This document shows positions 2,030 to 18,604 of a stretch of DNA of 61,808 bases, piece by piece. The DNA comes from a virus (taxonomy: Duplodnaviria; Caudoviricetes): positions 1-61,808 of IMG/VR virus record IMGVR_UViG_3300020402_000001; one strand, given 5' to 3'. The notes under the pieces are model-generated. The model worked only from the letters and a program-made list of their open reading frames with translations. It searched no databases and was not told where the DNA came from. Each line of letters begins with the position of its first letter. Positions within the stretch are counted from its first letter, which is position 1. The translations under genes were made by a program, and so were the position numbers.

Positions 2030-4343
2030 GTTTTTGCCTCGCTACGTCTAATCTTTCATCTGATTGTTGGTCTTGAACTGCAAGACGATCATAATCAAAT
2101 TCTAATCTCTCTGCAGCTCTTTGGTTTTCTTGTTCTTGTTTAAATTGTGTCTCTTCTGCTTTTCTTTGCATGTCCATAGCTCTTAAATCAACTTCTTGTT
2201 GTTTAATTCTTACTAATGGATCTTGTTTTGCAAGATTTGCCTGCATTTCTGTTTGTGCTAGCTCTTGTGTAATAGCTGCAGCTCTTTTTGCTACCTCAGC
2301 ATCAAACATTATTTGAAATTGTTCCGGATCAGCTTGTTGCATAGCAGCCATATTTGGATCTTGTGCCATCGTAGCTGCAACTTCTGCTCTTGCTTTGAAA
2401 GAAATGTGGTCAGATATGTGTGATTGCATCAAAGCATACACCTGCGGGTTAATTTGCACCATTCTTGTAGCCATAAAAGCCATGTGTGCTGCTATATGGG
2501 CATCATGATCTTGGAATTCAAAGGCTGTAAGCAGTTTCATTTGCAATGCTCTTGCATTTTCTTTTGCAGGATCCATTGGTTCAGGTTGTTTTGGTGCAGG
2601 TTTTAAAATTGTTTCAATTTGTTTCGTACCAAGTGCCTCGTAAACACGTCTATAAGCTTCATGTATGTTGTGAATTGCAGGATTTGTCTGTGCAATTTGT
2701 AATTGTGTCTGTGCAAGCGTCACTCTTTGCGCCATAGACATAATATTTGGGTCTGCAACTGGTAAAACATCAACTCTTCCGTCAAAATCTGCAGATTTTA
2801 TTTGTCTTGGGCCACCATAAACGTCATACGGGTACTCTGGTGGTAAAAATTCACCACAAATTCTTGCTAAAATTTTAAATTCTAGTCTCATTGCGTAGTA
2901 ACAACGCTTGTGAACACCACTCATCACACGTGAACCACGTTCCATCATAGCAATCGTAGTACCAACAGCCCTATTTTGTGCATCGTTACCGATATTATTA
3001 TCAGTTGTTGCCGCAAATTTTTGTCCTGCTTGAACAACAAAACCTAAAAGATTAAATAATGTTGTTGAAGGCTCAGTAAAAGGTAGGTTAAAGAATTGGT
3101 CTCTTATATTTCCACCCGGTGCATCGACATCTCTGAACTCTCCAGGTTGAATTGGTTGGTCATCATCTCTAACTCTGATACCTCTAGACTTAAATCCTGC
3201 TGGTAAATTTTTTAAAGTACCTGCATCGATCAATTGTCTTAAGGCTTGTGTTGCTGCAGTTGATAATCCACCAATCATATGTGTTAAACCAAAACCATAA
3301 AAGCCAAGACCAGGTAAAAATTTGTAATGCACAAAGTATTCTACTCTTGCATAATTTAAATCACCAGGTTTGTAGTTTCTATAAATAGATAAAATCTCTC
3401 CAGAGCCTTCATCAATTGTAACTATGTATGGAATCTTTACCGCTTTAGCATTTTCATCAAAATCTTCGTAGTCATCTAAATTTAAATCAACATGCATTTC
3501 TAAAATTGTATGCAGATAATCGTCTCCTGTTTTTTTAACACCTTCAATTTCATTTAATTTTTTCTGTAAGTTGTCTGGCTCTGGTTGTCCTTCTGTTAAT
3601 TCTATATCTCTATAAAATCCTGCAGCCATTTTTTTATTAACTTCGTTTTTAGTCATTTTGAAAGCATGAGTAATTCTTTCACAATCTTTCAAATCTGACG
3701 CGTAATAAGGAACTACTATTTCCTCTGCCTGCAAAAATTTAGATACTGGTCTTCCTAGTAATTCATCATAATATATTTTTTTGAATGTAGAACCTGAAAG
3801 TGGTAAGTAGAAAAGCATCTGATCCATATCAGTTGTATATTCTTCCATGTCTTCCATAAGAAGATAGTTCATATATTCTTTCACACGATCTGCCTGTTGT
3901 TCTACAGCAGGTGTTACTAAACCAATCGTCTGTACTCTTACAGGACCATCAGATGGTACAAGTTCTTTGTACGCTTGTGCTTGGAACTGTGTTACAGCTT
4001 CAGATAACATTGGGTGAGTAACGTTAGAGGCACCTTTAAAAGGTCTTGTCACATTTACGTACTTTGTACCCAACAGGTCTAAGCCTTTGATGTAAGCATC
4101 TTCCCAATCTTTTCTCGATAGCTTATCTTTTTTGTATTCTTGAACAAGCTCAGAGGCCATTTCTCTTAAAGTACGTTCATCCATGTTCTCTGCTAGATTG
4201 GCATTAAAATCGTCTTGAGGTCTTTCCTCAGCTACTTCTTCACCTTCAACAGAGACATCTACAGGCATTCCATCAGGTTGTTCCTGAATTTCTTCTACCT
4301 TGATTTCCTCATCTACAATTTCATTATTTTTCTCTACAGCCAT
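2016..4343 (-). CDS. Portal protein (P22-like, with C-terminal Gln-rich barrel)
   Basis: 775 aa, downstream of terminase, HPMLSEAVTQFQAQ and FYGFGL motifs, coiled-coil tail. Confidence 0.85.
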   Translation of the reverse strand: MAVEKNNEIVDEEIKVEEIQEQPDGMPVDVSVEGEEVAEERPQDDFNANLAENMDERTLREMASELVQEYKKDKLSRKDWEDAYIKGLDLLGTKYVNVTRPFKGASNVTHPMLSEAVTQFQAQAYKELVPSDGPVRVQTIGLVTPAVEQQADRVKEYMNYLLMEDMEEYTTDMDQMLFYLPLSGSTFKKIYYDELLGRPVSKFLQAEEIVVPYYASDLKDCERITHAFKMTKNEVNKKMAAGFYRDIELTEGQPEPDNLQKKLNEIEGVKKTGDDYLHTILEMHVDLNLDDYEDFDENAKAVKIPYIVTIDEGSGEILSIYRNYKPGDLNYARVEYFVHYKFLPGLGFYGFGLTHMIGGLSTAATQALRQLIDAGTLKNLPAGFKSRGIRVRDDDQPIQPGEFRDVDAPGGNIRDQFFNLPFTEPSTTLFNLLGFVVQAGQKFAATTDNNIGNDAQNRAVGTTIAMMERGSRVMSGVHKRCYYAMRLEFKILARICGEFLPPEYPYDVYGGPRQIKSADFDGRVDVLPVADPNIMSMAQRVTLAQTQLQIAQTNPAIHNIHEAYRRVYEALGTKQIETILKPAPKQPEPMDPAKENARALQMKLLTAFEFQDHDAHIAAHMAFMATRMVQINPQVYALMQSHISDHISFKARAEVAATMAQDPNMAAMQQADPEQFQIMFDAEVAKRAAAITQELAQTEMQANLAKQDPLVRIKQQEVDLRAMDMQRKAEETQFKQEQENQRAAERLEFDYDRLAVQDQQSDERLDVARQKLEKK

Positions 4344-4345
4344 AA

Positions 4346-6271
4346 TTAATTATACCTTCTTGTTTTGAACATATCTACTACAAGACCTCCCATGTGTCTG
4401 TAGGTTTTCTGTGTTTGCCTCATTAATGGAGATACTTTAACTGCAAAAGCATCAAAATACAACCTTGGATCATTCTGTAAAATAAGCTTATATCCCTTCT
4501 TTGGATCTTTAACGGCTTCAGTATGAAACTCATTTGTTATCTCTTTGCCTTTCATCTTGTGTGAATCTGGATATTTAAATTTTTCTTTCGATACACTTTT
4601 GTAAGGAAGTTTAGGATCTGACAGAGATATTTTTGTGGGTCCTGCTTTTGTTCCATAAAAGTTTCCTAGTTTTCTCATCAGCTCTGGCATTACAGCTTTA
4701 CCTCTTTTATCAATACCTTTACCATCTGCGTATCCATAAAATCTTTCATTACCTTTTTTATAACCCTGTCTAAAACTTAATTTTGAAAACGGTGCAACGG
4801 CTACGTAGTCAACACCTTCTCTTGCAGCTTTCTGTGTAAGATATTTAAGTGCATGATCTCCATAAGCATCGGCCTCAACAAGTGGAAAATAATCAAATCT
4901 TTCTCCTCCTGTATTTCTTCCTGAGAAAGTTCTATTTAATTTGTTTTGTACATCTCTCAATTCAGCAGACAATGCTTGTACTTTATTAGGTTGTCGTTTA
5001 GCCATGGCTTCGTTCATCTCTTGCATAATCTTTGCTCTGTTGTTTGCAAGTAAGTTTAATTCAAGGTCTGCTTGAAAAGGATTTGTTCTAGTATCTCCTG
5101 ATAATTGTTTTACTTTAGATAATTGTTTGGCTACGCTTTGGTTAACATCAGATTGTATTTCATTAATCATAAATACTTTTTTACCCTCTGGTGTAAATCT
5201 TGTGTCATATCTTATGTGATAAATATTGTTAGTTTCTTTTGGAAGTGCCTCACCAAAATGACCTCCCTTATTGAAAGGATTACGATTTGATGAAATTGGA
5301 TCATCTAAAACCATAATTGTTTCTCGATAATCTTTTCCTCCTTGAAGAGTATAATTTGTTTCGCCCCCGTAATAGGTTTTATTATTTTTCAAAGGTGCAT
5401 GTGCCTCGTTTACTTCACCTAAAACTTTGTTCATAACTTTTCTATCTTCAGGTCTCATTCTAGCATTATTTCTGACAGCTTTGATTTCATCTGCGAAAGC
5501 AGTTATAGCACCTCGTCCTTGATCATTTCTTAAACCACCAAGTTTATATATAACTTCATCTATACCATCTGTAATTTCATCAGATCCTCGTATAGCTGAT
5601 TGTGCATAATTCTTTCTTATATTTTTTAATTGATCAGCTGCATTTTGAGTAGTTCGTTCAAAAGTCTCCATAGCACCTTTTGGCATTCCAAGTTCTACAG
5701 GTCTCAATCTATTCACAGGATTTAATTTAATCATAGCACCTAGATCATTACCATCTAGCTTTAATCCAAACTTCTTAGCTGCATATAATAATCCGCCTGT
5801 TAAATCTCCAGCTTCATTAAAGATAGCTAAATTAGAATCAAACAATTCTTCTTTGTTAATAACAACTTCTTTTCCTTGAAATGGGCCAGAGTCATATCTA
5901 AATTTTTTGGGTTCTCTTACAGTTCTTGAAGTAGGTTTACCAAATACTTTTAGATTAACTTTTCTAGTTGACGTTAAATGATCTATCCATTCATCTGCAG
6001 AAAACTTACCTGCACCTTTTTTCATTATCCAATCATAAGTAGATGAACCAAAAGCAGGTGCTGTGTCATCACCCATGTGCAGTGGTTTTGTTTTCTTTAA
6101 AACAACAGGTGGGTTTTTAAGTTCTACCTTTGCTAGTTCTTTTCCGGTGTCCTGTGTCAATGGCTTCTCGTAAGTGAGAAGCTTTTGTTTTTGTCCGGTG
6201 GCCGGTGATGGATCTGGTTTCTTACCGAATACCTTACGGCCTATCCCAAATAAGATATTCTTAAGGGACAT
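4346..6271 (-). CDS. Large phage protein with a YRE..H..HIR..NEIQSD domain resembling large polyvalent protein domains
   Basis: 641 aa. Motif recognised from memory. C-terminal YRHMGGLV tag. Confidence 0.55.
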   Translation of the reverse strand: MSLKNILFGIGRKVFGKKPDPSPATGQKQKLLTYEKPLTQDTGKELAKVELKNPPVVLKKTKPLHMGDDTAPAFGSSTYDWIMKKGAGKFSADEWIDHLTSTRKVNLKVFGKPTSRTVREPKKFRYDSGPFQGKEVVINKEELFDSNLAIFNEAGDLTGGLLYAAKKFGLKLDGNDLGAMIKLNPVNRLRPVELGMPKGAMETFERTTQNAADQLKNIRKNYAQSAIRGSDEITDGIDEVIYKLGGLRNDQGRGAITAFADEIKAVRNNARMRPEDRKVMNKVLGEVNEAHAPLKNNKTYYGGETNYTLQGGKDYRETIMVLDDPISSNRNPFNKGGHFGEALPKETNNIYHIRYDTRFTPEGKKVFMINEIQSDVNQSVAKQLSKVKQLSGDTRTNPFQADLELNLLANNRAKIMQEMNEAMAKRQPNKVQALSAELRDVQNKLNRTFSGRNTGGERFDYFPLVEADAYGDHALKYLTQKAAREGVDYVAVAPFSKLSFRQGYKKGNERFYGYADGKGIDKRGKAVMPELMRKLGNFYGTKAGPTKISLSDPKLPYKSVSKEKFKYPDSHKMKGKEITNEFHTEAVKDPKKGYKLILQNDPRLYFDAFAVKVSPLMRQTQKTYRHMGGLVVDMFKTRRYN

Positions 6272-6279
6272 CGTCCCTC

Positions 6280-7269
6280 CTAATACATTTTTGTAGGTTT
6301 ATTTCTACCTAGTTTAGTTTTAACGGTCACCGAACCACCGACACTTTTGTTGGTGACTCTTACGATAGTTTTATCTTTTAAAAAAGGATCTGCATCATAA
6401 CTGTATCTGTAAGGATTATTATCTGCATCTCTTTCGAGACCCCCTTGACCACCACTATATTTTTTATTTTCACCTAAGATAACAAACATTTGTTTCTTTT
6501 TTTTGTCTTTTCCAGGTAAGCTTGGTACTCCTGCTCTTCTTCCTGGTTTCGGTTTTCTTTGTCCCATTCTTCTTGCTTGTGCGGCAGTTGGAGATCTTTG
6601 AGCGTCTCCACCTTCAGCATAATTAGTTGGTCTCATCATCATGCCGCCACCCATTTTTTTCTTAGGCTCATCTTTTTTCTTTTTCATTTTAGATTTTAAA
6701 TATTGTGATACAGCAACTGCCCCAGCAACAGGTAATAAAAGTTTTTTACCAAGAGATGTTGCTTGTGCTGCTTTCAAAGCTCTTCTAGCTATTTTAGAGC
6801 TTTTTGATGCTTCTGGTAGTTTTGGTTTTACACCAATGATTGTGCTAACAGCTTTTCCTTTGTCTCCAGCACTCACACCTGTTTTAAAAACTTTTTGGTA
6901 TCCAGAAAAAGTTTTACCCATTGCAGATTTAGCAGTAGTGCCAGGTATTGATTTAGCACCAGCAAGTTCCATTCTTCTTTTTATAAAGTCACCTCTTTTA
7001 GCTTTCATGACTTTACCGGGTTTCATCTTCTCGTCTTGTAAACCTTTACCTCTACCTTTTGCTTTTTCTGCTCTAAGTATTTTGAAATCTTGTGCATCGA
7101 TTCTGTTATTTTTATTCTTGTCTAATTTTGCTTGGCCGCCTGTTAATTTTTTATCTGTTTTAAATCCTTCATTTGCATCAGTGTTTTTTAATTTACTTCT
7201 TGCAACTTCAGACCCCTCAATAAAAGTATCTTTTTTAGATTTATCTTTTTTCAAAATTCTTATCGGCAT
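6280..7269 (-). CDS. Basic protein with an EF-hand-like loop and xxGG motifs
   Basis: DKNKNNRIDAQDF loop; KKMGGG, YAEGG and KSVGG motifs. Confidence 0.7.
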   Translation of the reverse strand: MPIRILKKDKSKKDTFIEGSEVARSKLKNTDANEGFKTDKKLTGGQAKLDKNKNNRIDAQDFKILRAEKAKGRGKGLQDEKMKPGKVMKAKRGDFIKRRMELAGAKSIPGTTAKSAMGKTFSGYQKVFKTGVSAGDKGKAVSTIIGVKPKLPEASKSSKIARRALKAAQATSLGKKLLLPVAGAVAVSQYLKSKMKKKKDEPKKKMGGGMMMRPTNYAEGGDAQRSPTAAQARRMGQRKPKPGRRAGVPSLPGKDKKKKQMFVILGENKKYSGGQGGLERDADNNPYRYSYDADPFLKDKTIVRVTNKSVGGSVTVKTKLGRNKPTKMY

Positions 7270-7277
7270 AGGTTCTC

Positions 7278-8756
7278 CTAATAATATTTATACTCTTTTT
7301 CTAATTTTATTGGCGGGTCGTCCCAATCGTCCGAGTACGTTGAAACAAATCCACCTTGTCGATATCTTAACACAGCTTGGGTCATGCTGTCTACATAGTC
7401 ATCATATTGACCGTTCGGAAAAGCAGCACATTCCTCAATTACTTCTTGAGCAAAGTGCTCATCCAAAGGAGCAAATACCATGCCAGATTCAAACACAGGA
7501 GCACAGCTATTGATACGTGTATGCTTATCTCTGCCTCTTGCAGGCACATAATCTATAACAGGTATACCTGCACGTCTAAGCTCATGTATCAATGGTTGTC
7601 CAGATGCTTTTGCTTCAATTATTACAGTTTCCGGTTCCCAGTATTTATATTGCTCTATTGCAACATTTTTTAAATCTGGAAAATCATACCTCCCCTTCAT
7701 AGCATCTAAAAGTAAAATACATTTTTCATAACCTTCTACAGGCTCAAAGATTCCCCATGTTGTTATCGCTGAGTAGTCTGCAGTTTCTTTTTTTGAAAAT
7801 GCAGTATCATAACTTTGAATGACATGTAGTAATTTTGGGAGGTAATCTCTATCCCAATCCTGCCACCATTCACGTTTTATGATTGCACCTTCTTCTGAAG
7901 TTGGGTCCTGCATGTATTGTGCGTTCCAGTTCTTCGTTGAGATAGATGCTTTGACAGAATCTAAATCTTCTTTACTCCAATACTCTGGCCATACAGGTTT
8001 ATCGTTTGGTAAAATTGCAGGGAACTCAATTACGTTCCACTTGTCCGCTTTTGGTTCTGATTGAGCCTTCACTAAACGACCAGTAAGATCGTCTACCGCC
8101 CACCGGGTCATTACAACTAGGATACGGCCTCCTGGTTGCAAACGCTGTCTGGGTCCTGAACTATACCATTCATAGGCTCTGTCCATAGCAGAATCTGACA
8201 TTGAGTCTTGTTCCGTATGTGGATCATCGATAATAAGTAAGTCCGCCCCTCGTCCTGTGATAGAACCGCCAACACCCGCTGCAAAGTATTCCCCACCATG
8301 ATTGGTCTCCCAACGTCCTTTTGCTTTACTATCTTCTCTCAAAGTAACATTACCAAAAATTTGTTTATATTCTTTTGTGTTCATTAAGTTACGAACCTTA
8401 CTACCGAATCTAGATGCAAGTTCAGCGTTGTGTGATACCTGCATAATTTTTTTCTTTGGATACTTTCCAATATACCAAGCAGGAAACAGATAAGATGCAA
8501 ATTCAGATTTAGTATGTCTAGGAGGCATATTAATGATGAGCCTCTTTGCATCTCCATCAGCTATGTCTTGAAATGCTTCAGCAATAATTTGATGGTGCCC
8601 ATATTTTTTTGGGTCCTTTGTTTTACGATAAATAAAATCTTGCCAAACAGTTTCAGCAAAAATTAAAAAATTATCCTGGCATAACTTGATCCACTCTAAT
8701 TGCTTTTTTAAAATTAGATCCTTTAATTCGTCTTCTGTAAGATGTTCAATATTCAT
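7278..8756 (-). CDS. terL: Terminase large subunit
   Basis: Walker A-like MPPRHTKS, Walker B LLIIDDP, MTRW coupling motif, RNase H-like SYDTA and DDYVD. Confidence 0.95.
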   Translation of the reverse strand: MNIEHLTEDELKDLILKKQLEWIKLCQDNFLIFAETVWQDFIYRKTKDPKKYGHHQIIAEAFQDIADGDAKRLIINMPPRHTKSEFASYLFPAWYIGKYPKKKIMQVSHNAELASRFGSKVRNLMNTKEYKQIFGNVTLREDSKAKGRWETNHGGEYFAAGVGGSITGRGADLLIIDDPHTEQDSMSDSAMDRAYEWYSSGPRQRLQPGGRILVVMTRWAVDDLTGRLVKAQSEPKADKWNVIEFPAILPNDKPVWPEYWSKEDLDSVKASISTKNWNAQYMQDPTSEEGAIIKREWWQDWDRDYLPKLLHVIQSYDTAFSKKETADYSAITTWGIFEPVEGYEKCILLLDAMKGRYDFPDLKNVAIEQYKYWEPETVIIEAKASGQPLIHELRRAGIPVIDYVPARGRDKHTRINSCAPVFESGMVFAPLDEHFAQEVIEECAAFPNGQYDDYVDSMTQAVLRYRQGGFVSTYSDDWDDPPIKLEKEYKYY

Positions 8757-8936: not shown

Positions 8937-9200
8937 TTACTCTTGTGTAGGTGTTAGCTGTTGTACCAACGTACTAAATTTTTCTAGTATGTTATTCTTA
9001 AACTCATCAACAACAGCGTTGCCTTGATTTTCTAATATGTGCTTTTCACACTCGCCCATTAATAACTGAAACATTATTTCATAGTTAAGTTGTTTCTTTG
9101 CACCATTAGAAACCAACATATCTTTAAGTTGAGTTGGCGATTTCTCGCCAACCCTTTCAGCTAATACATTAGCAATATTGATTAAACTATTATTGGGCAT
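8937..9200 (-). CDS. Hypothetical protein (putative early gene)
   Basis: 87-aa ORF with a GGGGA RBS, coupled to the upstream gene. Confidence 0.75.
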   Translation of the reverse strand: MPNNSLINIANVLAERVGEKSPTQLKDMLVSNGAKKQLNYEIMFQLLMGECEKHILENQGNAVVDEFKNNILEKFSTLVQQLTPTQE

Positions 9201-9513
9201 TGTTATCCCCTATTGCTTTGTACTCTTGATATTCAATTTCAGTACAGAACTTATTGAATAAATCATTGTGAGCAATTTTGAAATTAGCAGTTTCAAATTT
9301 CTTCCTCTTACGATTTATTCTTTGTAATCCAAAACTATTACCATTCTCATCTTGTACAATGATTAAGTTTTGATTTGTTCTCTCAAAGCAATCAACAATG
9401 TTTTGTTTCATTGTGTCTAACTCTTTACTTAGTCTATTTGCTTTAAGCTTTAGTTGTGCATATGCAAGTACGATTTTCTTTTCGTCTTGATTTAGCTTTT
9501 TTGCTTTTTGCAT
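9190..9513 (-). CDS. Hypothetical coiled-coil protein (putative early gene)
   Basis: 107 aa, RBS AAAGAGG, own promoter at 9558-9585. Confidence 0.8.
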   Translation of the reverse strand: MQKAKKLNQDEKKIVLAYAQLKLKANRLSKELDTMKQNIVDCFERTNQNLIIVQDENGNSFGLQRINRKRKKFETANFKIAHNDLFNKFCTEIEYQEYKAIGDNNAQ

Positions 9514-9557
9514 TTTTACCTCTTTGTTAAGTTATGTATTCTTATGAATACCCCCTT

Positions 9558-9585
9558 GTCTTATCAAATCCCATTATTATTGCAA
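9558..9585 (-). promoter_or_regulatory. Sigma70-like promoter P1 with ATGGGA box
   Basis: TTGCAA-N16-TAAGAC with an extended TG; shares ATGGGATTTGATAAGA with P2. Confidence 0.6.
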
Positions 9586-9588
9586 TAG

Positions 9589-9819
9589 CTAATTTAACTT
9601 TTTTTTATCTTTTTTATTAAGCAAATTATTAATGGTATCAACATTTGGCTCAACCTCTAGTTGTACTGCTAGATTTCCGAATAGTTTTTTAATCATCTCG
9701 GTGAACTCGCGCTGGTGTCGTTCCCCAGCTTTAGTTGTTTCATCAACCTTTTTCTTTTCCACACGAGAACGAGGCGAGGCGACAATGTCGCCTCGCTTGT
9801 TATTATTTGGCATTACCAA
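9589..9819 (-). CDS. Hypothetical protein; true start may be downstream (e.g. MIKKLF at about 9696)
   Basis: ORF track. The 5' part overlaps a strong hairpin and AACGAG motifs. Confidence 0.4.
   Translation of the reverse strand: MVMPNNNKRGDIVASPRSRVEKKKVDETTKAGERHQREFTEMIKKLFGNLAVQLEVEPNVDTINNLLNKKDKKKLN
9774..9796. terminator. GC-rich inverted repeat
   Basis: GCGAGGCGACA-A-TGTCGCCTCGC, just downstream of the 9813 gene. Confidence 0.55.
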
Positions 9820-10241
9820 CTACACCAATATTCTACAACCTTGCCCTCGCTTATGGCTTGCTCACAGAATTTTAAAAACTTGATATCTTGCTCTTTGTAC
9901 TCTTTCACACTCTCCTCTTGGAATTGTTGCCCCCAGAAGAAACCATCTTCAGCGTGATAATCAGAAAAGCCTTTCTGTATCTGTTCGCCTAGTTCTTCAA
10001 CGACTTCCTTAGTCAGATAACAAGGTGCTTCTTGATCTCCATTAAAACCTAGATGTGCAAGAAAACCCTCAGTCTTTATAGCAGGGTTTTGATCTGCCCA
10101 TTTCTTAGCCATAAACTCCTGTAGTCTTGCGTGCTTTCTCCAAACGAAAATGTTATTTTTATCTCCGTAATCATCTTCGTTGTAGTATTTTTCCCAATCG
10201 ACTTTAGTGCCTCTTAGGTGTGCGTGTTGGTCTAAACCCAT
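9813..10241 (-). CDS. Conserved-type phage protein (MGLDQ..WRKH..GFFWG), putative early gene
   Basis: Start reassigned to ATG 10241 after AAGGAG; acidic 142-aa protein. Confidence 0.8.
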   Translation of the reverse strand: MGLDQHAHLRGTKVDWEKYYNEDDYGDKNNIFVWRKHARLQEFMAKKWADQNPAIKTEGFLAHLGFNGDQEAPCYLTKEVVEELGEQIQKGFSDYHAEDGFFWGQQFQEESVKEYKEQDIKFLKFCEQAISEGKVVEYWCSW

Positions 10242-10270
10242 ATCTTCTCCTTTGTTAGTTAATGGTTTGC

Positions 10271-10319
10271 GTGGTTGAGTTGCGATATCTTCGTTTGCCG
10301 ATGTACATATCTCAACCAC
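10271..10319 (-). promoter_or_regulatory. 5'-UTR stem-loop of the 10241 gene
   Basis: Perfect 9-bp stem GTGGTTGAG/CTCAACCAC with a 31-nt loop, starting at the predicted TSS of P2. Confidence 0.55.
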
Positions 10320-10325
10320 AATCTG

Positions 10326-10354
10326 CTCTTATCAAATCCCATCTATCAATGCAA
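10326..10354 (-). promoter_or_regulatory. Sigma70-like promoter P2 with ATGGGA box
   Basis: TTGCAT-N17-TAAGAG with an extended TG. Confidence 0.6.
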
Positions 10355-10481
10355 CAATTATCTTTTAGAACCATTCTAAACTAGCGACCTTACCATTCTT
10401 CTTGCCACCAGAAGTTCCTGCGCCCAGCCCCCTGAACTTTGTCAGCTGCACCAGCCAGGTCTGGTTCAAACGACAACGAGG

Positions 10482-10589
10482 TTAGAACAAATTCCCTACG
10501 ACAGCGAGAATGGTGATTGCACTCAAGAAGAGCACAGTACTTGGAAACATTAGAAGTAAGATGAGGTACGCAGTGATCATGATCCACAT
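10482..10589 (-). CDS. Small hydrophobic membrane peptide (35 aa)
   Basis: MWIMITAYLILLLMFPSTVLFLSAITILAVVGNLF, the 3' part of track ORF 10482..10724. Confidence 0.5.
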   Translation of the reverse strand: MWIMITAYLILLLMFPSTVLFLSAITILAVVGNLF

Positions 10590-10662
10590 ACCGTGCTGCC
10601 AGTCCTGCTTCCCAGCAGCAGGTACTGCCGGGGCCGGTTCAATTGTAAACGAGACGAGGCCT

Positions 10663-10863
10663 TCATTTCTCCTCCTTAACGAGCGACTCCGCCCACGTGT
10701 TACCGTTTGCGATGCAGCGGTCACCTGGTCCTCCAGTTAATGCATATACCTTTCCAGCTTCAGGTTTATCTTCTTTCACGGCATCTGCAGCGTGCCAACC
10801 ATCCGGTGGCATGTTCTCCTTGTTCATTTGCTTTACTAATTTATGTAACGTTGTACGGGCCAT
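10663..10863 (-). CDS. Hypothetical protein (putative first early gene)
   Basis: 66 aa, strong RBS AAGGAGGT, promoter P3 upstream. Confidence 0.75.
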   Translation of the reverse strand: MARTTLHKLVKQMNKENMPPDGWHAADAVKEDKPEAGKVYALTGGPGDRCIANGNTWAESLVKEEK

Positions 10864-10896
10864 ACGGCACCTCCTTCTTTGTTAGTTGATCAGGCT

Positions 10897-10925
10897 TAGA
10901 TAAGATAAGATGGGACAAATGTCAA
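10897..10925 (-). promoter_or_regulatory. Sigma70-like promoter P3 with inverted ATGGGA box
   Basis: TTGACA-N17-TATCTA; the spacer contains TCCCATCT. Confidence 0.65.
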
Positions 10926-11055
10926 GAGCTTTTCTTCAGAACCAGCAGTTCCTGGAGATCCAGTCCTGAAGCTCACGCTGCTGGGGGGGTCAGACCTTTG
11001 TCAAACGAGAACGAGATTTTGCTTGACATCAGAACGAGATCCAGCTGCAGGTGCA

Positions 11056-11117
11056 TGCCATCACCGGCCCCCCGCTAACTAACAAAGAGGGAAAGAAACG
11101 AGGGGCGGGAAATGGCA
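11056..11117 (-). ncRNA. Candidate antisense hairpin RNA (anti-RBS loop)
   Basis: Stems UGCCAU/AUGGCA and CCCGC/GCGGG close a loop containing CCUCUUUGUUAGUUA, complementary to four gene leaders. Confidence 0.5.
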
Positions 11118-11221
11118 CGAGCTTCCGTACGCTGCAGCACGGGTCACCAGCTGCAGCTCCGGCAGGGACCAGTCGGTGTCCTTTGAACGAGAACGAGCGA
11201 GGTTTCTCAACGAGAACGAGA

Positions 11222-11611
11222 TCACGCTGCCTCCTGAAGGAGATCCAGCAGGTTACGCTGGACCAGTGGCCATTGTAACGGGAACGAGAACGAGGCAACG
11301 GGCTTCAACGAGCGAGGATCAGTGAAACCGAACACCGGTCTGTACAGTTTAAGAGACCTCTGCAAAGGGGTCTCTTTCAAGATAAATACTTTACCACCTG
11401 CTTTTACATACTTGTTGATCCAAACTATTTGCCATTTATTAAGCTTAGGATAACTGAGTTCATCTGATTTTAATTCTAACCAATAAATACCCTTTTGGTG
11501 CACAGCATGAACATCAGGTATACCGTTAATTGTGCTAGATTCTATGCGAGTTAGAAACGATTCAGTCAGTCCTTTTTTTACCTTTTTCCAGAGATTACTT
11601 TCGCTTGGCAT
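11222..11611 (-). CDS. VRR-NUC / Holliday junction resolvase-like PD-(D/E)XK nuclease
   Basis: ES..W, RIES, GIPDV, WLELK and Q..W motifs. Confidence 0.8.
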   Translation of the reverse strand: MPSESNLWKKVKKGLTESFLTRIESSTINGIPDVHAVHQKGIYWLELKSDELSYPKLNKWQIVWINKYVKAGGKVFILKETPLQRSLKLYRPVFGFTDPRSLKPVASFSFPLQWPLVQRNLLDLLQEAA

Positions 11612-11908
11612 TTAGATCAGTTTTTTTATATTTTTAATTACACTGTTAGGTATAATAGTGCTATTTCCTATTTCTTCAATCTCACCTTTTTCAGATTCAG
11701 AATAGTCTCCAAACACTCTAGTTATACCTTTTGATTGAGTCAGGAGATGGCCTTTCGTAACACACACAGGCAGTTTAGCTTTTAATAAATTATCCATGCT
11801 TTGCCACGAGCTGTCAGAACAAATATCAAACCATTCAATCTCAACCAAAGGATATCTGTCCTTCCAGTTCTTAGACCTTTTATTTATTGAAATTTTTTTT
11901 CTTGTCAT
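11612..11908 (-). CDS. Conserved-type phage hypothetical protein
   Basis: LVEIEWFDI..GHLL..IIPNSVI pattern, in an operon with terS. Confidence 0.75.
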   Translation of the reverse strand: MTRKKISINKRSKNWKDRYPLVEIEWFDICSDSSWQSMDNLLKAKLPVCVTKGHLLTQSKGITRVFGDYSESEKGEIEEIGNSTIIPNSVIKNIKKLI

Positions 11909-11991
11909 TCACCTCTACCTTTACATTACCCACTGAAGTGAACATCGTAGAATTGTGCACGCTGTTAAAAACTTTGATCCACTCAGACCAA

Positions 11992-12516
11992 CTAGCCGTT
12001 TTCAACTTCTTCAACGTGCTTGGACTCAACCTCGATGGTTTTGGCATTATAGCCATCGATCTTTTCCGATAACTCGGATAATTTGTTTTCGAGTTCCTCA
12101 CGTGACATTCCCTCCAGACCTGTTACTTTAACTTCTTTTCTATCAACAAAAGCCCCTGCTAATTGTCCTGATCTATATTCAGCATTGATGGCAGCAGCAT
12201 ATTGATCTTTCTTTTCAGCTTTGTCAGCTAATCTTTCAAATCTTTTATATCTTCTAAGATTATCACTTTCATACTTTTTGATTTCTTTATCAAATCTTTG
12301 ATCAAAGTATTTAGCAACATGTGGATTATGTTTTCTTGATAAAAGCCTGGAGGCAATCACACCATAATCATTTTCATTTTTACAAACATAACCTGCACGT
12401 TTTAAAGCTTCAGCCTGAGTTATCGATCCATGATCTTGTACCATTATCTCCACAAACATTTTTTGTTTTGGAGTAAGATCATCAATAGTTCTTAATTCTT
12501 TTTTCTTTAAACCCAT
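11992..12516 (-). CDS. terS: Terminase small subunit
   Basis: LTPKQKMFV..AEALKRAGY..ASRLL N-terminal HTH typical of TerS. Confidence 0.8.
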   Translation of the reverse strand: MGLKKKELRTIDDLTPKQKMFVEIMVQDHGSITQAEALKRAGYVCKNENDYGVIASRLLSRKHNPHVAKYFDQRFDKEIKKYESDNLRRYKRFERLADKAEKKDQYAAAINAEYRSGQLAGAFVDRKEVKVTGLEGMSREELENKLSELSEKIDGYNAKTIEVESKHVEEVENG

Positions 12517-13067
12517 TAGACGTATTTAGAAATTATCTTTTTTAATTTTTTAGATTGACCTGCATGTGCCTTAGATGCTTTATCTAATTTACCTGCAACG
12601 TTTTTCAAAGTTTCGACATCACCACCTTTTTCATAACCGAATTTTCTCAATCTAATTTTTTTATAATTTCTATCTGCTGAGATAGCCATCTCTTTCAACA
12701 TTTGTTTTCTTTGTTGTCTAGTGAGTGGCTGCACTTGTAAAGTTTTACCCGCTTTATCTGATGCATACGCTTTACCAACAATTACAGGTTTTCTAAATTT
12801 TGCTTTTTCAGCTTTACCTTTTGCAATACTTAACTTAATTCTGTTTTTTAATCCTGGTTGTGCTTTAAACTCAGCTTGGCCTGTTACTTTCAATCCACGT
12901 AATTGTTTTTTTAGAAAAGACTTTTTTAGATCGTAAGGCTCAACACCAGCTCTATTTGGATCTCTTTTGGCAGCTCTTATCTGTGCTTTTTGTTTTCTGT
13001 AAATTTTACGAAAAGCCTCTTTTGCTGTTTTAAAGGCTAAGCCAGACATTTGTAATTTTTTCATCAT
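12516..13067 (-). CDS. Lys-rich basic protein with YEKGG motif
   Basis: 183 aa, C-terminal KASKAHAGQSKKL module. Confidence 0.75.
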   Translation of the reverse strand: MMKKLQMSGLAFKTAKEAFRKIYRKQKAQIRAAKRDPNRAGVEPYDLKKSFLKKQLRGLKVTGQAEFKAQPGLKNRIKLSIAKGKAEKAKFRKPVIVGKAYASDKAGKTLQVQPLTRQQRKQMLKEMAISADRNYKKIRLRKFGYEKGGDVETLKNVAGKLDKASKAHAGQSKKLKKIISKYV

Positions 13068-13077
13068 AATTTTTTAT

Positions 13078-13300
13078 TATATAGATTATTTCATCACAAA
13101 GTAACTACCTGAAATTGTTTTGATTGCGTTCCCGCAAGATTGGTGTCTCTCGGGGACACCACAGGGACACCACAGGGACACCATCAAAATGGACTATTAT
13201 CGTTGATATATATGACTAATAGAGCATCAGGGACACCAGGGACACCTATTTTACCCCCAGGGGTACTTTTTATTAGTAAGGGGTCTAGATAATCTATATA
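13078..13300. repeat. Iteron-like GGGACACC array flanked by a 12-bp inverted repeat; candidate replication origin
   Basis: GGGACACC at 13153, 13164, 13175, 13230 and 13239; TATATAGATTAT (13078) and ATAATCTATATA (13289). Confidence 0.75.
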
Positions 13301-13335
13301 GAAGAAAATTTACCTTTGTCCGTTGGCCGGTATTC

Positions 13336-13344
13336 TGTTATACT
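13336..13344 (+). promoter_or_regulatory. Extended -10 promoter
   Basis: TGtTATACT upstream of two hairpins and the 13452 gene. Confidence 0.5.
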
Positions 13345-13350
13345 TAACCT

Positions 13351-13432
13351 GTGTTTACTAATTTCAAACACTTAATTGATATTCCTCTGGGGGTTTTAAT
13401 CATTTTATGCTCTCTTGACTTTCCCCCAGGGG
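13351..13432 (+). ncRNA. Candidate two-hairpin small RNA or leader with anti-RBS loop
   Basis: GTGTTT/AAACAC and CCTCTGGGGG/CCCCCAGGGG stems. The second loop is the reverse complement of AAGAGAGCATAAAATGATTAAAA. Confidence 0.4.
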
Positions 13433-13451
13433 TTATACATCTAAGACCACC

Positions 13452-14051
13452 ATGACGAATTTTCTAGATTCACAATATCAAATCATCAAACAAGCCATTT
13501 CACCGGACACAGCAAAAATCTCTTATCAATACCTAATCAATAAAAAAGAATTATATTTTAAAACAAAAAAATCTTGGCCTAAAATAATCAAAGACAACAT
13601 AGACTTTGAAATGTTTGGTTATTTAGGAGACTTCCAAGCACCGACCACCTGGTGCACTTATGGAGATTTACTAATGGAAACCATACTCATCAATTTACGA
13701 AAAAAAATGGAAGAGATAACTCACCTCGAATTAGATGAACAATATGCATATGCAAGACTATACAAAACGGGAGATGAATTAAAAAAACACAAAGATAGAT
13801 TTGAATGTGAAATTTCAACAACTTTAAATTTAGGAGGAGACTTATGGCCAATTTATCTAGAACCAGATATCAAAGTAGAGCTTACGCCTGGAGATATGCT
13901 AGTCTACAAAGGAGCAGAAATAGCTCATTGGAGACACGTTTTTACAGGAAAAGAGTGCGCACAAGTATTCTTACATTACACTAGAAAAGGTACAGGTAAA
14001 AAATACGACTCAAGACAGTTTTTATGTTTACCGAAAATATTCGTTAAATAG
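13452..14051 (+). CDS. 2OG-Fe(II) oxygenase
   Basis: YARLY..LKKHKDR..EIS..HWR..QVFLHY, giving an HxD..H triad. Confidence 0.85.
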   Translation: MTNFLDSQYQIIKQAISPDTAKISYQYLINKKELYFKTKKSWPKIIKDNIDFEMFGYLGDFQAPTTWCTYGDLLMETILINLRKKMEEITHLELDEQYAYARLYKTGDELKKHKDRFECEISTTLNLGGDLWPIYLEPDIKVELTPGDMLVYKGAEIAHWRHVFTGKECAQVFLHYTRKGTGKKYDSRQFLCLPKIFVK

Positions 14052-16500: not shown

Positions 16501-17283
16501 CTAATGCTCTTGATATTCTTTAGACTCAAAGAAATCAAGAAGTTTTATTTTCTTTTTACTACGACCACTATTGAAAATCCTTTCAATAATAGTGATATAG
16601 TCTTTCGTGCTAGTTCCCGATAAGAACCAAGAGGATTTAGTTGCACAGGCATTCCTAAATCTTTTGTAATCAAAATCAGGGTGTTTGTCCGCCACGATGT
16701 ATGCATAAACCATAGATCTTTTTAGTCTACGTTTTGTATCGTCCATACCTAAAAAGTATTTTCGTAGCTGCATAAGTTGTGCACCAACACGATCACAGTT
16801 TTCAATACCTCCTGCAGGAATTTGAAAATCTCCAGTCTTAAATTCTGTTCGAATTCTATTCCACAGTGAGCATTGTTTTAATAAAAGAACCATGGCCTCA
16901 GAAACATTCATACCATACTGGCTCATTTTGTTTCTGCAAATTTGATAATCTCTTTTCTGCCTCGCGCAGTGATGATTCAAATAAGCTTCCATGGACCAAT
17001 TCTTTCTACCTGTGTTGAGTCTTGCAACATCAAGTGGATCATCAGAATTGATTATGATGTATGGTATCTTCAGGTCTAGTTCTTTTCTAGCCTGCAAAGT
17101 GTGTTGACCATCAATCACTTCCATATTTTTATTTACACGTATCGGATCAAAAAGATCTTTCTCAGCAATTAACTTTTTTAATTGTCTTACGTGTGCTTCG
17201 TCTACAGGTCTATTACCTCTAGCCTTTTTAAACTTTGAGTAATCAGTTGTCTCAAAGTATTTATTTTTAATCGCATTATTCAT
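16501..17283 (-). CDS. ParB/Srx N-terminal domain protein
   Basis: GNRPV..H, PI.V, VIDGQHTLQA motifs. Confidence 0.8.
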   Translation of the reverse strand: MNNAIKNKYFETTDYSKFKKARGNRPVDEAHVRQLKKLIAEKDLFDPIRVNKNMEVIDGQHTLQARKELDLKIPYIIINSDDPLDVARLNTGRKNWSMEAYLNHHCARQKRDYQICRNKMSQYGMNVSEAMVLLLKQCSLWNRIRTEFKTGDFQIPAGGIENCDRVGAQLMQLRKYFLGMDDTKRRLKRSMVYAYIVADKHPDFDYKRFRNACATKSSWFLSGTSTKDYITIIERIFNSGRSKKKIKLLDFFESKEYQEH

Positions 17284-17659: not shown

Positions 17660-17930
17660 CAAACCTCCACAGGTTAAAGTTACGAACCATTTCATTTAAT
17701 CCGCTATGAAACTTTATCTTACCATTTAGTATGTCTTGACACTTATGTGATTTGTATGTTTCACCATTCACAGTCAATGTCAGTTCTTTAGTTGACTCAT
17801 TAAACTCAACTGAGAAGACATGAGTCATGACAACGCTCTTTGGTTTTACTTCCCACTCAGGCTTTAAAACCAAGGCTTCGCCCAACTTCTCAGCTGCAGT
17901 CATTGCTGCTTTCTCTTCTTCTGTTTTCAT
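17637..17930 (-). CDS. Hypothetical protein, first gene of the P4 operon
   Basis: Start MKTEEE after ACTAACAAAGAGG. Confidence 0.75.
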   Translation of the reverse strand: MKTEEEKAAMTAAEKLGEALVLKPEWEVKPKSVVMTHVFSVEFNESTKELTLTVNGETYKSHKCQDILNGKIKFHSGLNEMVRNFNLWRFDESKSKN

Positions 17931-17969
17931 GATAACCTCTTTGTTAGTATTTTTTAAAAACATCAGATC

Positions 17970-17997
17970 CTTATAAAGAAAAAGATGGGATATGCAA
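17970..17997 (-). promoter_or_regulatory. Sigma70-like promoter P4 with inverted ATGGGA box
   Basis: TTGCAT-N16-TATAAG; the spacer contains TCCCATCT. Confidence 0.55.
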
Positions 17998-18029
17998 GGA
18001 AAAAATGTTATAGGATAATATAGGAATTT

Positions 18030-18302
18030 ATGACAAAATTTGTATTAGTAATGTTTATGTGTAGCGTGGTCAGTGGCCAGTGTCCGTCATCACATATCCC
18101 TGGATTTTCATTTGAAAGCCACACAGCCTGTGTAGAATATGGCTATAGAGTGGCACATGGCACATTTAAGACACTTAAAGAAAATGAAGAATTCACTGAT
18201 GAATACATAGAAAACAACAAAATAGTGGTTAAATTTGAGTGCAGACCTGTACAATTACCAAAACCAATAGTTCCACCACCAAAGCCAAAAATTGGCGCAT
18301 AG
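18030..18302 (+). CDS. Exported or membrane-anchored Cys-containing protein
   Basis: Hydrophobic N-terminus, 4 Cys, Pro-rich tail. Confidence 0.7.
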   Translation: MTKFVLVMFMCSVVSGQCPSSHIPGFSFESHTACVEYGYRVAHGTFKTLKENEEFTDEYIENNKIVVKFECRPVQLPKPIVPPPKPKIGA

Positions 18303-18337: not shown

Positions 18338-18604
18338 ATGAAGCTATATCGCGTCCAAGCAAAATATAAAAACATATTAATTGATGAGATGCTTGAGGCT
18401 GAGAACGATAAGGCTGCTCTTGACACGTTTTACAAGAAGGTTGAGTCAGGAGATGTAACAGAGAAGGATGCTGGTGGTTTTTTAAATCCAGATAGACTTT
18501 TTATAACCTTCGAGGAGGTTGACCGAGATGCAACTACAAAAGTTAATATCGGAAAAACTTCAGTTGGAGTCCAAGTGGGCGAACCAAGCACTGGAGCAGG
18601 GTAG
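18338..18604 (+). CDS. Hypothetical protein (probably leaderless)
   Basis: TATAAT at 18327-18332 lies 5 nt before the ATG. Confidence 0.7.
   Translation: MKLYRVQAKYKNILIDEMLEAENDKAALDTFYKKVESGDVTEKDAGGFLNPDRLFITFEEVDRDATTKVNIGKTSVGVQVGEPSTGAG

What the first reader, a model, noticed from the sequence alone, without database searches (positions are those of the whole stretch)
11056..11117. Candidate trans-acting antisense hairpin against the shared RBS of four putative early genes
Seen: four minus-strand genes (starts 9513, 10241, 10863, 17930) share the leader (AC)UAACAAAG next to or overlapping their Shine-Dalgarno. A fifth copy (TAACTAACAAAGAGG, 11076-11090) is in the opposite orientation with no start codon at RBS distance. 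On the minus strand it sits in a loop closed by CCCGC/GCGGG and UGCCAU/AUGGCA. That loop pairs 13 nt with the 17930 leader, 12 with 10863, 12 plus G:U with 10241, and 11 plus 4 (one bulge) with 9513. It lies downstream of the terS operon. Established: loop-presented antisense RNAs act in trans in P1/P7 (C4) and P4 (CI). Inference: a later transcript shuts off early translation at several loci.
Basis: partly seen in the sequence, partly recalled or inferred. Interest (0 to 1): 0.85.

Follow-up and report, generated by a model that had tools for sequence, protein, structure and literature searches.

The report
Conserved anti-leader RNA hairpin in pelagiphages
A strongly conserved RNA stem-loop in a group of marine SAR11-type phages displays, in its loop, the exact complement of the ribosome-binding leader shared by a few phage genes, so it most likely silences those genes by base pairing.

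Summary
The window is an HTVC023P-type pelagiphage-like genome. On the minus (gene-sense) strand, 11054-11119 folds into a stable hairpin (z -5.0). Its 20-nt loop is the complement of the leader ACUAACAAAGAGG that precedes the ATGs at 9513, 10241, 10863 and 17930.

New evidence from relatives:
- The hairpin occurs once per locus, downstream of terS, in 68 of 80 related IMG/VR loci.
- Its stems are rebuilt by compensatory changes: 92.6% of cells pair, against 40-57% in slid controls, and 10 of 18 pairs change on both sides.
- There are 75 G.U cells against 3 A.C cells, so the folding RNA is the minus strand.
- The loop core CCUCUUUGUU is at least 98% conserved except one column (82%).
- The plus-strand "RBS" reading fails, because the only nearby ATG is kept in 6 of 45 distinct rows.

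The hairpin always lies upstream of a conserved sigma-70-type promoter, which is usually followed by a gene with the leader. No conserved promoter or terminator flanks the hairpin.

My reading is an anti-RBS RNA made on read-through transcripts. It may act in cis, like T4 gene e, and/or in trans after processing, like P1 c4. Transcription, trans action and "early" timing are not shown. HTVC023P has the leader but no hairpin. There is no Rfam match and I found nothing in print.

The parts
11054..11119 (-). RNA stem-loop with an outer and an inner stem. The covariance model hit spans 11055-11120.
   Evidence: Fold. Covariation. Model R1 scores 87.2 bits on the minus strand against 25.9 on the plus strand. 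75 G.U cells against 3 A.C cells.
11077..11096 (-). 20-nt pyrimidine-rich loop CUUUCCCUCUUUGUUAGUUA. The anti-leader core CCUCUUUGUUAGU is the complement of 11078-11090(+).
   Evidence: Loop columns CCTCTTTGTT are at least 98% conserved in 45 distinct rows, except one T column at 82%.
10897..10925 (-). Conserved sigma-70-type promoter, TTGACA, 17 nt, TATCTA, with a CCCATC spacer. It lies between the hairpin and the first leader.
   Evidence: A promoter-like match follows the hairpin in 62 of 64 rows. This is a consensus match only; no transcription start was mapped.
10874..10886 (-). Leader and Shine-Dalgarno region of the 66-aa gene 10663-10863. It is the nearest target, about 190 nt downstream of the loop.
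   Evidence: (I1: 16 nt, 94% complementary), (rank 1, -20.1 kcal/mol).
10247..10259 (-). Leader of the gene starting at 10241 (142 aa).
   Evidence: rank 15.
9519..9531 (-). Leader of gene 9190-9513 (107 aa).
   Evidence: rank 7.
17936..17948 (-). Leader of the gene starting at 17930 (97 aa). It is an exact 13-nt complement of the loop and lies behind a related promoter (TTGCAT..CCCATC..TATAAG).
   Evidence: rank 2.
11222..11611 (-). Endonuclease-like gene, called ORF A here. Its stop lies 105 nt upstream of the hairpin, and its conserved tail runs into the GC-rich stretch.
   Evidence: PHROG 2165 (E 1.4e-11) and PHROG 93 (E 2.1e-7). Synonymous changes and a kept frame in relatives.
11992..12516 (-). 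Terminase small subunit, upstream on the same strand.
   Evidence: PHROG 51 and Pfam Terminase_2.
11004..11294 (-). Span holding four exact copies of CUCGUUCUCGUU (11283-11294, 11209-11220, 11186-11197, 11004-11015) that flank the hairpin. They are conserved as sequence, not as structure.
   Evidence: Paired copies occur in at least 120 IMG/VR stretches.

Best explanation
The element is a strand-specific RNA stem-loop. It sits in the untranslated stretch between the stop of the endonuclease-like gene (11222) and a conserved sigma-70-type promoter (10897-10925). It has no conserved promoter or terminator of its own, so it is probably made as part of transcripts that read through from the terS operon. 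Its stable, freely evolving stem holds open a 20-27-nt pyrimidine-rich loop. The nearly invariant core of that loop (CCUCUUUGUUAGUU) is the complement of the short 5' leader and Shine-Dalgarno region (ACUAACAAAG(G)AGG) carried by 2-6 counted copies per near-complete genome.

I propose that it is an anti-RBS element that pairs with these leaders and blocks 30S binding. The primary target is the first leader behind the promoter, about 190 nt downstream. On read-through transcripts this keeps the downstream operon silent, while promoter-proximal transcripts, which lack the hairpin, are translated. This is the logic of T4 genes e, soc, 49 and I-TevI. If the hairpin is released by processing, it could also act in trans on the other leaders, as c4 RNA of P1/P7 does.

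Shown: the structure, the folding strand, loop conservation, the complementarity and the synteny. Inferred: transcription, the pairing itself, and any effect on translation.
For: Structure and strand:
- MFE -35.5 kcal/mol, z -4.96 on the minus strand, against z -1.95 on the plus strand.
- On a MAFFT alignment of 64 hairpins (45 distinct), 92.6% of cells pair against 40-57% for slid partners. 10 of 18 pairs change on both sides, and 0 of 500 shuffles reach the score.
- On the model-fitted alignment of 79 hits, 94.5% of cells pair and 15 of 18 pairs change on both sides.
- 75 G.U cells against 3 A.C cells.
- Divergent members have wholly different stems around the same loop.

Uniqueness: the model finds one hit in the window. 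The next hits are the complements of the leaders at 9513, 10241 and 10863. RNAalifold on 20 full regions finds only this helix.

Distribution: 68 of 80 terS-anchored loci at E<=1e-7 and 71 of 80 at E<=1e-3. I read from the coordinates that 8 of the other 9 contigs end too soon after terS to hold it.

Complementarity. In near-complete relatives G001, G002 and G004, AACAAAGRRG has 2-6 sense copies and one antisense copy, which lies in the hairpin (with the coordinates).

Synteny: a promoter-like site follows the hairpin in 62 of 64 rows, and a leader-bearing start lies within 600 nt in 47 of 64.

Co-variation:
- The dinucleotide before ACAAAG is the same in the loop complement and in the first downstream leader in 56 of 66 unique loci. 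The permutation mean is 31.5, the maximum 46, and 0 of 10000 reach 56.
- After removing loop and leader main effects, own pairs are 1.10 kcal/mol more stable. The permutation sd is 0.26 and 0 of 10000 are as low.

Precedents: T4 RBS sequestration (PMC3014915, passages read) and c4 RNA (PMC12197685, passages read).
Against: - No RNA evidence. The two metatranscriptome runs gave no contig over the hairpin.
- The co-variation rests on few independent events, and 10 of 66 loci are discordant. Variant loops (CCUCUUAGUU, CCUCUUUAGUU) usually pair worse with their own leaders than the majority loop would. Other leaders do not track the loop.
- HTVC023P has the leader on gp23, gp24, gp26 and gp27 but no hairpin and no hairpin-borne antisense copy. 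So the leader does not need the hairpin.
- In 17 of 64 rows no leader-bearing start lies within 600 nt. In 6 of those rows none was found at all, partly because the contig ends.
- Loop-to-leader pairing in cis would be a long-range, pseudoknot-type contact that MFE folding cannot show.
- Two of the four window leaders are not outliers in the duplex scan.
Confidence: 0.48

Rival explanations
1. A free-standing or processed small RNA, made later in infection, acts only in trans and shuts off translation of a regulon of early genes at several loci.
For: - The anti-leader is presented in a large open loop of a very stable hairpin, as in c4 (PMC12197685, passages read).
- The only exact 13-nt match is with the remote 17930 leader.
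- 2-6 sense copies of the leader core per near-complete genome share the target.
- The hairpin persists where no close downstream leader is found.
Against: - No conserved promoter or intrinsic terminator around the hairpin.
- Fixed position just upstream of a promoter and first leader.
- Only the first downstream leader tracks loop variants.
- The timing of the target genes is unknown.
- Leaders 9513 and 10241 are not energetic outliers.
Confidence: 0.2
2. The hairpin is a protein-binding or RNase-processing site, for example for a phage translational repressor, an RNA chaperone or RNase III. Its loop is read by a protein. The complementarity to the leader is then a relic of an inverted duplication of a leader cassette.
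For: - Conserved loop sequence with free stems is also what a loop-reading protein would give.
- The flanking CUCGUUCUCGUU repeats look like protein sites.
- Leaders exist without the hairpin in HTVC023P.
- Variant loops do not compensate.
Against: - A relic would not keep 10-13 nt of exact complementarity across lineages whose stems have been fully replaced.
- The best-conserved loop bases are exactly those that pair with the leader core AACAAAGAGG.
- Loop and first-leader variants are associated.
Confidence: 0.15
3. The motif works as double-stranded DNA, as an operator, a recombination hot-spot or a packaging site that functions in either orientation. The copy in the hairpin is then just one more site.
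For: - A DNA-binding protein would explain a shared motif in both orientations, and joint change of sites.
- A metatranscriptome contig of a relative diverges from the window exactly at the 10241 leader (loose end at 10257). This fits recombination at the motif.
- The region lies between terS and terL and is full of direct repeats.
Against: - The stems covary with 75 G.U against 3 A.C cells, a signature of RNA on one strand.
- The model scores 87 bits against 26 by strand.
- All sense copies overlap the Shine-Dalgarno sequence at a fixed distance from start codons.
- There is only one antisense copy per genome.
Confidence: 0.07
4. The plus-strand copy is the ribosome-binding site of a real or decayed plus-strand gene.
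For: An ATG at 11112 follows a second GAGG at suitable spacing and opens a 24-codon ORF.
Against: - The ATG is kept in 6 of 45 distinct rows, because that base is one side of a covarying stem pair.
- The plus strand scores and folds worse.
- No frame is conserved across relatives downstream of ORF A.
Confidence: 0.01

Closest known systems
c4 antisense RNA of phages P1/P7 (and the related CI RNA of P4)
   Same: - A non-overlapping antisense RNA encoded on the same strand as, and upstream of, its target.
- The complementary bases are displayed in a hairpin loop.
- The target includes the ribosome-binding region (PMC12197685, passages read).
- That c4 is cut out of the same transcript as its target is my recollection, not from a call.
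   Different: - No match to any Rfam family in 9000-13500 at E<=1, so it is not a homologue.
- One loop instead of two.
- The host phage group is described as lytic (PMC12753301, abstract).
- Several leaders share the target sequence.
- Processing and trans action are unproven.
RBS sequestration on read-through transcripts in T4 (genes e, soc, 49, I-TevI)
   Same: An upstream sequence complementary to the Shine-Dalgarno region of a gene, with a promoter lying between the two arms. Only long upstream-initiated transcripts carry the inhibitory arm (PMC3014915, section 29 passages read). The window has the same order: loop, promoter, leader.
   Different: - In T4 the two arms form one local stem-loop. 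Here they are about 190 nt apart (120-600 nt in relatives).
- The upstream arm is itself the loop of an independent, covarying hairpin.
- The same leader recurs on other genes.
sar RNA of P22 and OOP RNA of lambda (phage antisense RNAs)
   Same: Small phage RNAs that repress by pairing near a translation start (PMC12197685, passages read).
   Different: Those are transcribed from the opposite strand of their target and so are fully complementary. This element is encoded elsewhere on the same strand and shares only 10-16 nt with its targets.
PeSL mobile regulatory cassettes of T4-type phages
   Same: A stem-loop next to an early-type promoter at the borders of small genes in a hypervariable region, with signs of recombination at the shared motifs (loose end at the 10241 leader).
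   Different: PeSLs recur many times per genome and their loops are not complementary to leaders. Here there is one hairpin per genome.

Membership tests
C4 antisense RNA family (P1/P7 c4, P4 CI) | Sequence and structure match to the curated covariance model | tested here: not met
   Rfam 15 scan of 9000-13500, both strands, E<=1: no match to any family.
C4 antisense RNA family (P1/P7 c4, P4 CI) | Antisense bases shown in hairpin loops and complementary to the RBS region of a target on the same strand, not overlapping it | tested here: met
   The loop at 11077-11096 is complementary to the leaders at 10874-10886 and 17936-17948.
C4 antisense RNA family (P1/P7 c4, P4 CI) | Two loop segments pairing with two target segments | tested here: not met
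   Only one conserved helix and loop in the 300-nt region. That c4 has two such segments is recalled, not from a call.
C4 antisense RNA family (P1/P7 c4, P4 CI) | Processed out of the target's own transcript into a discrete small RNA | not testable with these tools
   The RNA runs gave contigs only, and none over the hairpin.
T4-type RBS sequestration on read-through transcripts | An upstream arm complementary to the Shine-Dalgarno region or start of the next gene on the same strand | tested here: met
   16 nt at 94% between 11077-11092 and 10872-10887 (I1). A leader-bearing start lies within 600 nt of the hairpin in 47 of 64 rows.
T4-type RBS sequestration on read-through transcripts | A promoter between the arms, so that proximal transcripts lack the inhibitory arm | tested here: met
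   TTGACA, 17 nt, TATCTA at 10897-10925. A like site follows the hairpin in 62 of 64 rows. This is a consensus match only; no start site was mapped.
T4-type RBS sequestration on read-through transcripts | The RBS buried in a predicted local helix | tested here: inconclusive
   The MFE of the 446-nt stretch keeps the hairpin and does not pair loop with leader. Such a loop-to-distal contact is a pseudoknot that the program cannot predict.
Intrinsic (Rho-independent) terminator | GC-rich stem followed by a run of U | tested here: not met
   The scan lists no minus-strand terminator-like site at the hairpin. The 3' flank reads GCACCUGCAGCUGG.
Protein-coding sequence across the hairpin | A reading frame kept across relatives | tested here: not met
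   Downstream of the ORF A stop, the frames differ between relatives. The plus-strand ATG is kept in 6 of 45 rows.

The most novel reading that the evidence does not exclude
A c4-like regulatory RNA in a lytic marine phage group. The hairpin is cut from the terS-operon transcript and its loop acts in trans on a small regulon of phage genes that share one 5' leader, timing their translation. It would be the first regulatory RNA described in pelagiphages. The CUCGUUCUCGUU repeats around it may serve as loading sites for a protein, for example Rho or a phage RNA-binding protein, that completes the switch.
Probability: 0.25. Interest if true: 0.8.

Novelty: new variant of a known kind. Interest (0 to 1): 0.64.

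Why it matters
[quoted passage not shown] Almost nothing is known about how they time gene expression. That paper reports mosaic temporal classes in HTVC027P (section 12 read). By the GenBank annotation its three odd-class genes, gp30, gp33 and gp34, lie between terS and terL. That is the same part of the genome as this hairpin.

The element has covariation good enough for a curated RNA family, sits at a fixed place in the genome, and has an obvious pairing partner. This gives a directly testable handle on post-transcriptional control in these phages. It would also extend loop-presented, same-strand antisense control beyond the temperate enterobacterial phages where it was found.

Tried and rejected
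Known families and close relatives:
- Rfam gave no match in 9000-13500 at E<=1.
- blastn of 10600-11700 against GenBank phages found no match. So no deposited phage in that collection carries the region at that sensitivity.

Coding readings of the GC-rich stretch:
- The small ORFs 11079-11225, 10973-11056 and 10896-10976 looked coupled through GTGA overlaps. Their frames are not kept in relatives.
- The plus-strand RBS or gene reading is rejected.

RNA evidence. One search found two metatranscriptome runs, each with a 0.06 share of words. Laid on 9000-13000, they gave six short contigs at 9207-10315 and 10667-10814 and none over the hairpin. Contigs cannot show absence, strand or ends, so this says nothing either way.

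HTVC023P. Its two reverse-strand near-copies of the leader, each with 1 mismatch, were fetched and folded. Neither is a hairpin-loop copy.

Other deposited relatives:
- A search for an anti-leader to the different leader of phage 023Pt_psg01 gave only leaders of genes on both strands.
- A lenient model search of HTVC023P, 023Pt_psg01, HTVC027P and DSL-LC04 gave only weak hits, 11-16 bits. The full-length ones, in HTVC027P and 023Pt_psg01, lie in other GC-rich structured intergenic regions without a convincing anti-leader loop.

Energy scans:
- An all-against-all duplex scan timed out.
- The reduced scan of 660 nt downstream of each hairpin was noisy, because purine-rich coding stretches compete with the leaders. 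I replaced it with tests restricted to leaders.
- The own-versus-other loop comparison may be inflated by the majority loop being a generally better binder, so I rely.

Literature:
- One search was too loose to be useful.
- 'pelagiphage' plus 'small RNA' returned 2 unrelated papers.
- 'HTVC023P' returned 10 papers, seen as a listing. I opened only PMC12753301, where a term search found no occurrence of 'promoter' or 'antisense'.
- My statement that I found nothing in print rests and on the Rfam scan only.
- Supplementary Table S3 of PMC12753301 (temporal class per gene) could not be seen and may bear on the timing of genes in this region.

Full report
**What the window is.** The large terminase at 7278-8756(-) is 71% identical in protein to that of Pelagibacter phage HTVC023P. 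The small terminase is at 11992-12516(-). Most ORFs listed lie on the minus strand. As in HTVC023P, terS and terL are separated by several kilobases of small genes of unknown function. The finding lies in this stretch, 105 nt after the stop of an endonuclease-like gene, called ORF A here (11222-11611). The local DNA is 58-60% G+C in a genome of about 35%.

**The observation.** The shared leader is real.
- ACTAACAAAGAGG with up to 2 mismatches occurs 6 times (2.83 expected; 5 of 100 shuffles reach 6).
- Four of these copies are on the minus strand directly before the ATGs at 9513, 10241, 10863 and 17930.
- One exact copy is on the plus strand at 11078-11090.
- The bare 8-mer TAACAAAG is not enriched. 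The signal is in the placement of the copies.

On the minus strand, 11054-11119 folds at -35.5 kcal/mol, z -4.96, with the anti-leader in a 20-nt loop. The plus strand folds less well, z -1.95. Scanning the loop against both strands of the window puts the 10863 and 17930 leaders first and second on the minus strand. The 9513 leader is seventh and the 10241 leader fifteenth, among purine-rich sites. So two of the four proposed targets stand out energetically and two do not.

**It is a conserved RNA structure.** Relatives were collected in two ways: 80 IMG/VR loci through terS (79-100% identity) and at least 120 stretches through a local repeat.
- blastn aligns the region 10864-11345 at 70-96% identity to 78 loci, 63 of them distinct.
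- In a MAFFT alignment of the 64 hairpins (45 distinct rows), 92.6% of cells form standard pairs against 40-57% when partners are slid. 10 of 18 pairs show changes on both sides, and 0 of 500 shuffles reach the covariation score.
- On the model-fitted alignment of 79 hits the figures are 94.5% and 15 of 18. That alignment leans towards the structure.
- Stem types such as GCCCCUCG/CGGGGGGC, GCCCCAUG/CAUGGGGC, GGCCACCG/CGGUGGCC, GCCCACG/CGUGGGC and GACCAGGUC/GGCCUGGUC replace one another around the same loop.
- There are 75 G.U cells and 3 A.C cells, so the folding strand is the minus strand.
- A covariance model built from the alignment scores 87.2 bits on the minus strand and 25.9 on the plus strand. 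It finds no second copy in the window. Its next hits are the complements of the leaders at 9513, 10241 and 10863.
- It hits once per locus in 68 of 80 terS-anchored loci at E<=1e-7, in 71 of 80 at E<=1e-3, and in 67 of 100 repeat-anchored loci.
- By my reading of the coordinates, 8 of the 9 terS loci without a hit end less than about 900 nt after terS.
- RNAalifold on 20 full-length regions predicts this helix and nothing else.

**The loop is what is conserved.** In the 45 distinct rows, nine of the ten columns of CCTCTTTGTT are 98-100% conserved and one T column is 82%. The next four columns, AGTT, are 80-91% conserved. The complement of this core, AACAAAGAGG, is the core of the leader. Even members whose stems share nothing with the window keep UUUGUUAGUU.

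**What it is not.**
- It is not the RBS of a plus-strand gene. The only ATG nearby, at 11112, belongs to a covarying stem pair and is kept in 6 of 45 rows.
- It is not coding on the minus strand. ORF A is truly coding to its stop, with synonymous changes through FTDPRSL and a kept frame to ...EAA*. Beyond that stop no frame is shared.
- It is not an intrinsic terminator, because there is no U run.
- It matches no Rfam family.

**Context.** Directly downstream lies a conserved sigma-70-type promoter, TTGACA, 17 nt, TATCTA, with a CCCATC spacer, at 10897-10925. A like site follows the hairpin in 62 of 64 rows.
- In many loci the leader begins about where this promoter would start transcription. 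The motif would then be most of a roughly 20-nt 5' UTR (inference).
- A start codon preceded by the leader lies within 600 nt of the hairpin in 47 of 64 rows. In 11 rows it lies further away, and in 6 none was found, partly because the contig ends.
- The gene behind the promoter differs between phages.
- No conserved promoter or terminator brackets the hairpin itself. It is therefore most simply made by read-through from the terS operon.
- In three near-complete relatives, AACAAAGRRG has 2-6 sense copies and a single antisense copy, which falls inside the hairpin (with the coordinates).

**Do loop and leaders change together?** Only partly.
- Most loops are the majority type. Variant loops (CCUCUUAGUU, CCUCUUUAGUU) mostly face unchanged leaders, with which the majority loop would pair better.
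- Three loop states at the two bases before ACAAAG (UA, AA, CA) do go with the same state in the first downstream leader in 56 of 66 unique loci. The permutation mean is 31.5, the maximum 46, and 0 of 10000 reach 56.
- After removing loop and leader main effects, own pairs are 1.10 kcal/mol more stable than swapped ones. The permutation sd is 0.26 and 0 of 10000 are as low.
- These tests ignore relatedness. The AA state is essentially one clade and the CA state two or three lineages, so only a few independent events are involved.
- Other leaders in the same loci do not follow the loop.
- The association, limited to the first downstream leader, favours that leader as the main partner.

**A result against necessity.** HTVC023P carries the same leader on gp23, gp24, gp26 and gp27 and about ten sense-strand near-copies genome-wide. 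It has no hairpin, and its two reverse near-copies are not in hairpin loops. The leader therefore has a life of its own, probably as an unstructured 5' UTR with an extended Shine-Dalgarno sequence (inference). The hairpin is an addition in the window's subclade.

**Mechanism.** The order is anti-leader, then promoter, then leader. This is the order described for T4 genes e, soc, 49 and I-TevI. There, long upstream transcripts carry an arm that buries the RBS, and promoter-proximal transcripts lack it (PMC3014915, section 29 passages read).

Displaying the antisense bases in a hairpin loop, upstream of and on the same strand as the target, is the design of c4 RNA of P1/P7 (PMC12197685, passages read). 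That c4 is processed from the target's own transcript is my recollection.

I therefore read the element as an anti-RBS RNA made on read-through transcripts. I judge cis action on the first downstream leader the better supported mode, and trans action on the other leaders possible. As a further inference, the C-rich CUCGUUCUCGUU repeats and a silenced first RBS could together favour Rho-dependent termination of read-through. That idea is untested.

**Limits.**
- There is no transcript evidence.
- Nothing shows that the targets are early genes. PHROG and Pfam give them no function.
- The HTVC027P transcriptome paper reports mosaic temporal classes (PMC12753301, section 12 read). Its per-gene table is a supplement that I could not open.

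**Verdict.** The hairpin is a new, well-supported RNA motif of one pelagiphage subclade. The antisense interpretation is plausible and partly supported. Its trans mode and its timing are open.

Noticed in passing
window 9762-11294, minus strand: CTCGTTCTCGTT occurs 11 times with up to 2 mismatches (2.7 expected; 0 of 100 shuffles reach 11). Eight of the 11 are minus-strand copies within 9762-11294, four of them exact. The other three, each with 2 mismatches, are plus-strand copies elsewhere. The repeat is conserved as sequence, not structure, in relatives. Pairs of it occur in at least 120 IMG/VR stretches. It may be a protein-binding site (pac/terS, the ParB-like protein at 16501-17283, a transcription factor, or Rho loading).
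   Followed up: partly
window 10897-10925 (-) and about 17965-17995 (-): A phage-specific promoter consensus, TTGACAnnnATCCCATnnnnTCTTATnTAAG, is conserved in relatives and sometimes duplicated. A looser version (TTGCAT..CCCATC..TATAAG) precedes the 17930 leader.
   Followed up: partly
window 9559-9574 and 10327-10342, minus strand: There are two exact copies of the 16-mer ATGGGATTTGATAAGA, 45-85 nt upstream of the leader-bearing starts 9513 and 10241. ATGGGAT is the reverse complement of the ATCCCAT in the promoter spacer.
   Followed up: no
window 11222-11345, minus strand: The endonuclease-like ORF A has a conserved C-terminal tail (..YRPV..FTDPRSL..SFSFPLQWP.VQ...EAA*) encoded in the GC-rich stretch. 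One CTCGTTCTCGTT repeat lies inside it and is invariant at the DNA level. This suggests overlapping coding and nucleic-acid constraints.
   Followed up: partly
window 10320-10662, minus strand: A second GC-rich (about 50%) stretch follows the 66-aa gene, with modules like those around the hairpin. It includes a possible 35-aa hydrophobic ORF at 10482-10589 (MWIMITAYLILLLMFPSTVLFLSAITILAVVGNLF, part of the 80-aa ORF).
   Followed up: no
window 10257 (RNA run X1, record 2): A metatranscriptome contig matches 10129-10257 without a difference and then diverges exactly inside the 10241 leader (table 7). This suggests that the leader is a mosaic junction between related phages.
   Followed up: no
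L001 (HTVC023P) 2850, 3568, 5078 and 5934; intergenic 3450-3567: The cultured phage HTVC023P has the same AACTAACAAAG leader on four genes between terS and terL. In one intergenic region a local hairpin (GGUGGUGUUGGUU..AACUAACACCAC) could bury a leader-like copy.
   Followed up: partly
L198 (HTVC027P) 6093-6560 and L002 (023Pt_psg01) 5134-5450: Other HTVC023P-type clades have different GC-rich, hairpin-rich intergenic regions at the comparable place. These share a CUGAUCCCUG(A/G)UC... long hairpin and lie upstream of a TTGACA promoter. In HTVC027P the genes with unusual temporal classes (gp30, gp33, gp34; PMC12753301 section 12) lie in this terS-terL region.
   Followed up: no
window 17964-18030: A short divergent intergenic region separates the leader-bearing minus-strand gene (start 17930) from two plus-strand genes (18030-18302 and 18338-18604). 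It looks like a regulatory switch point.
   Followed up: no
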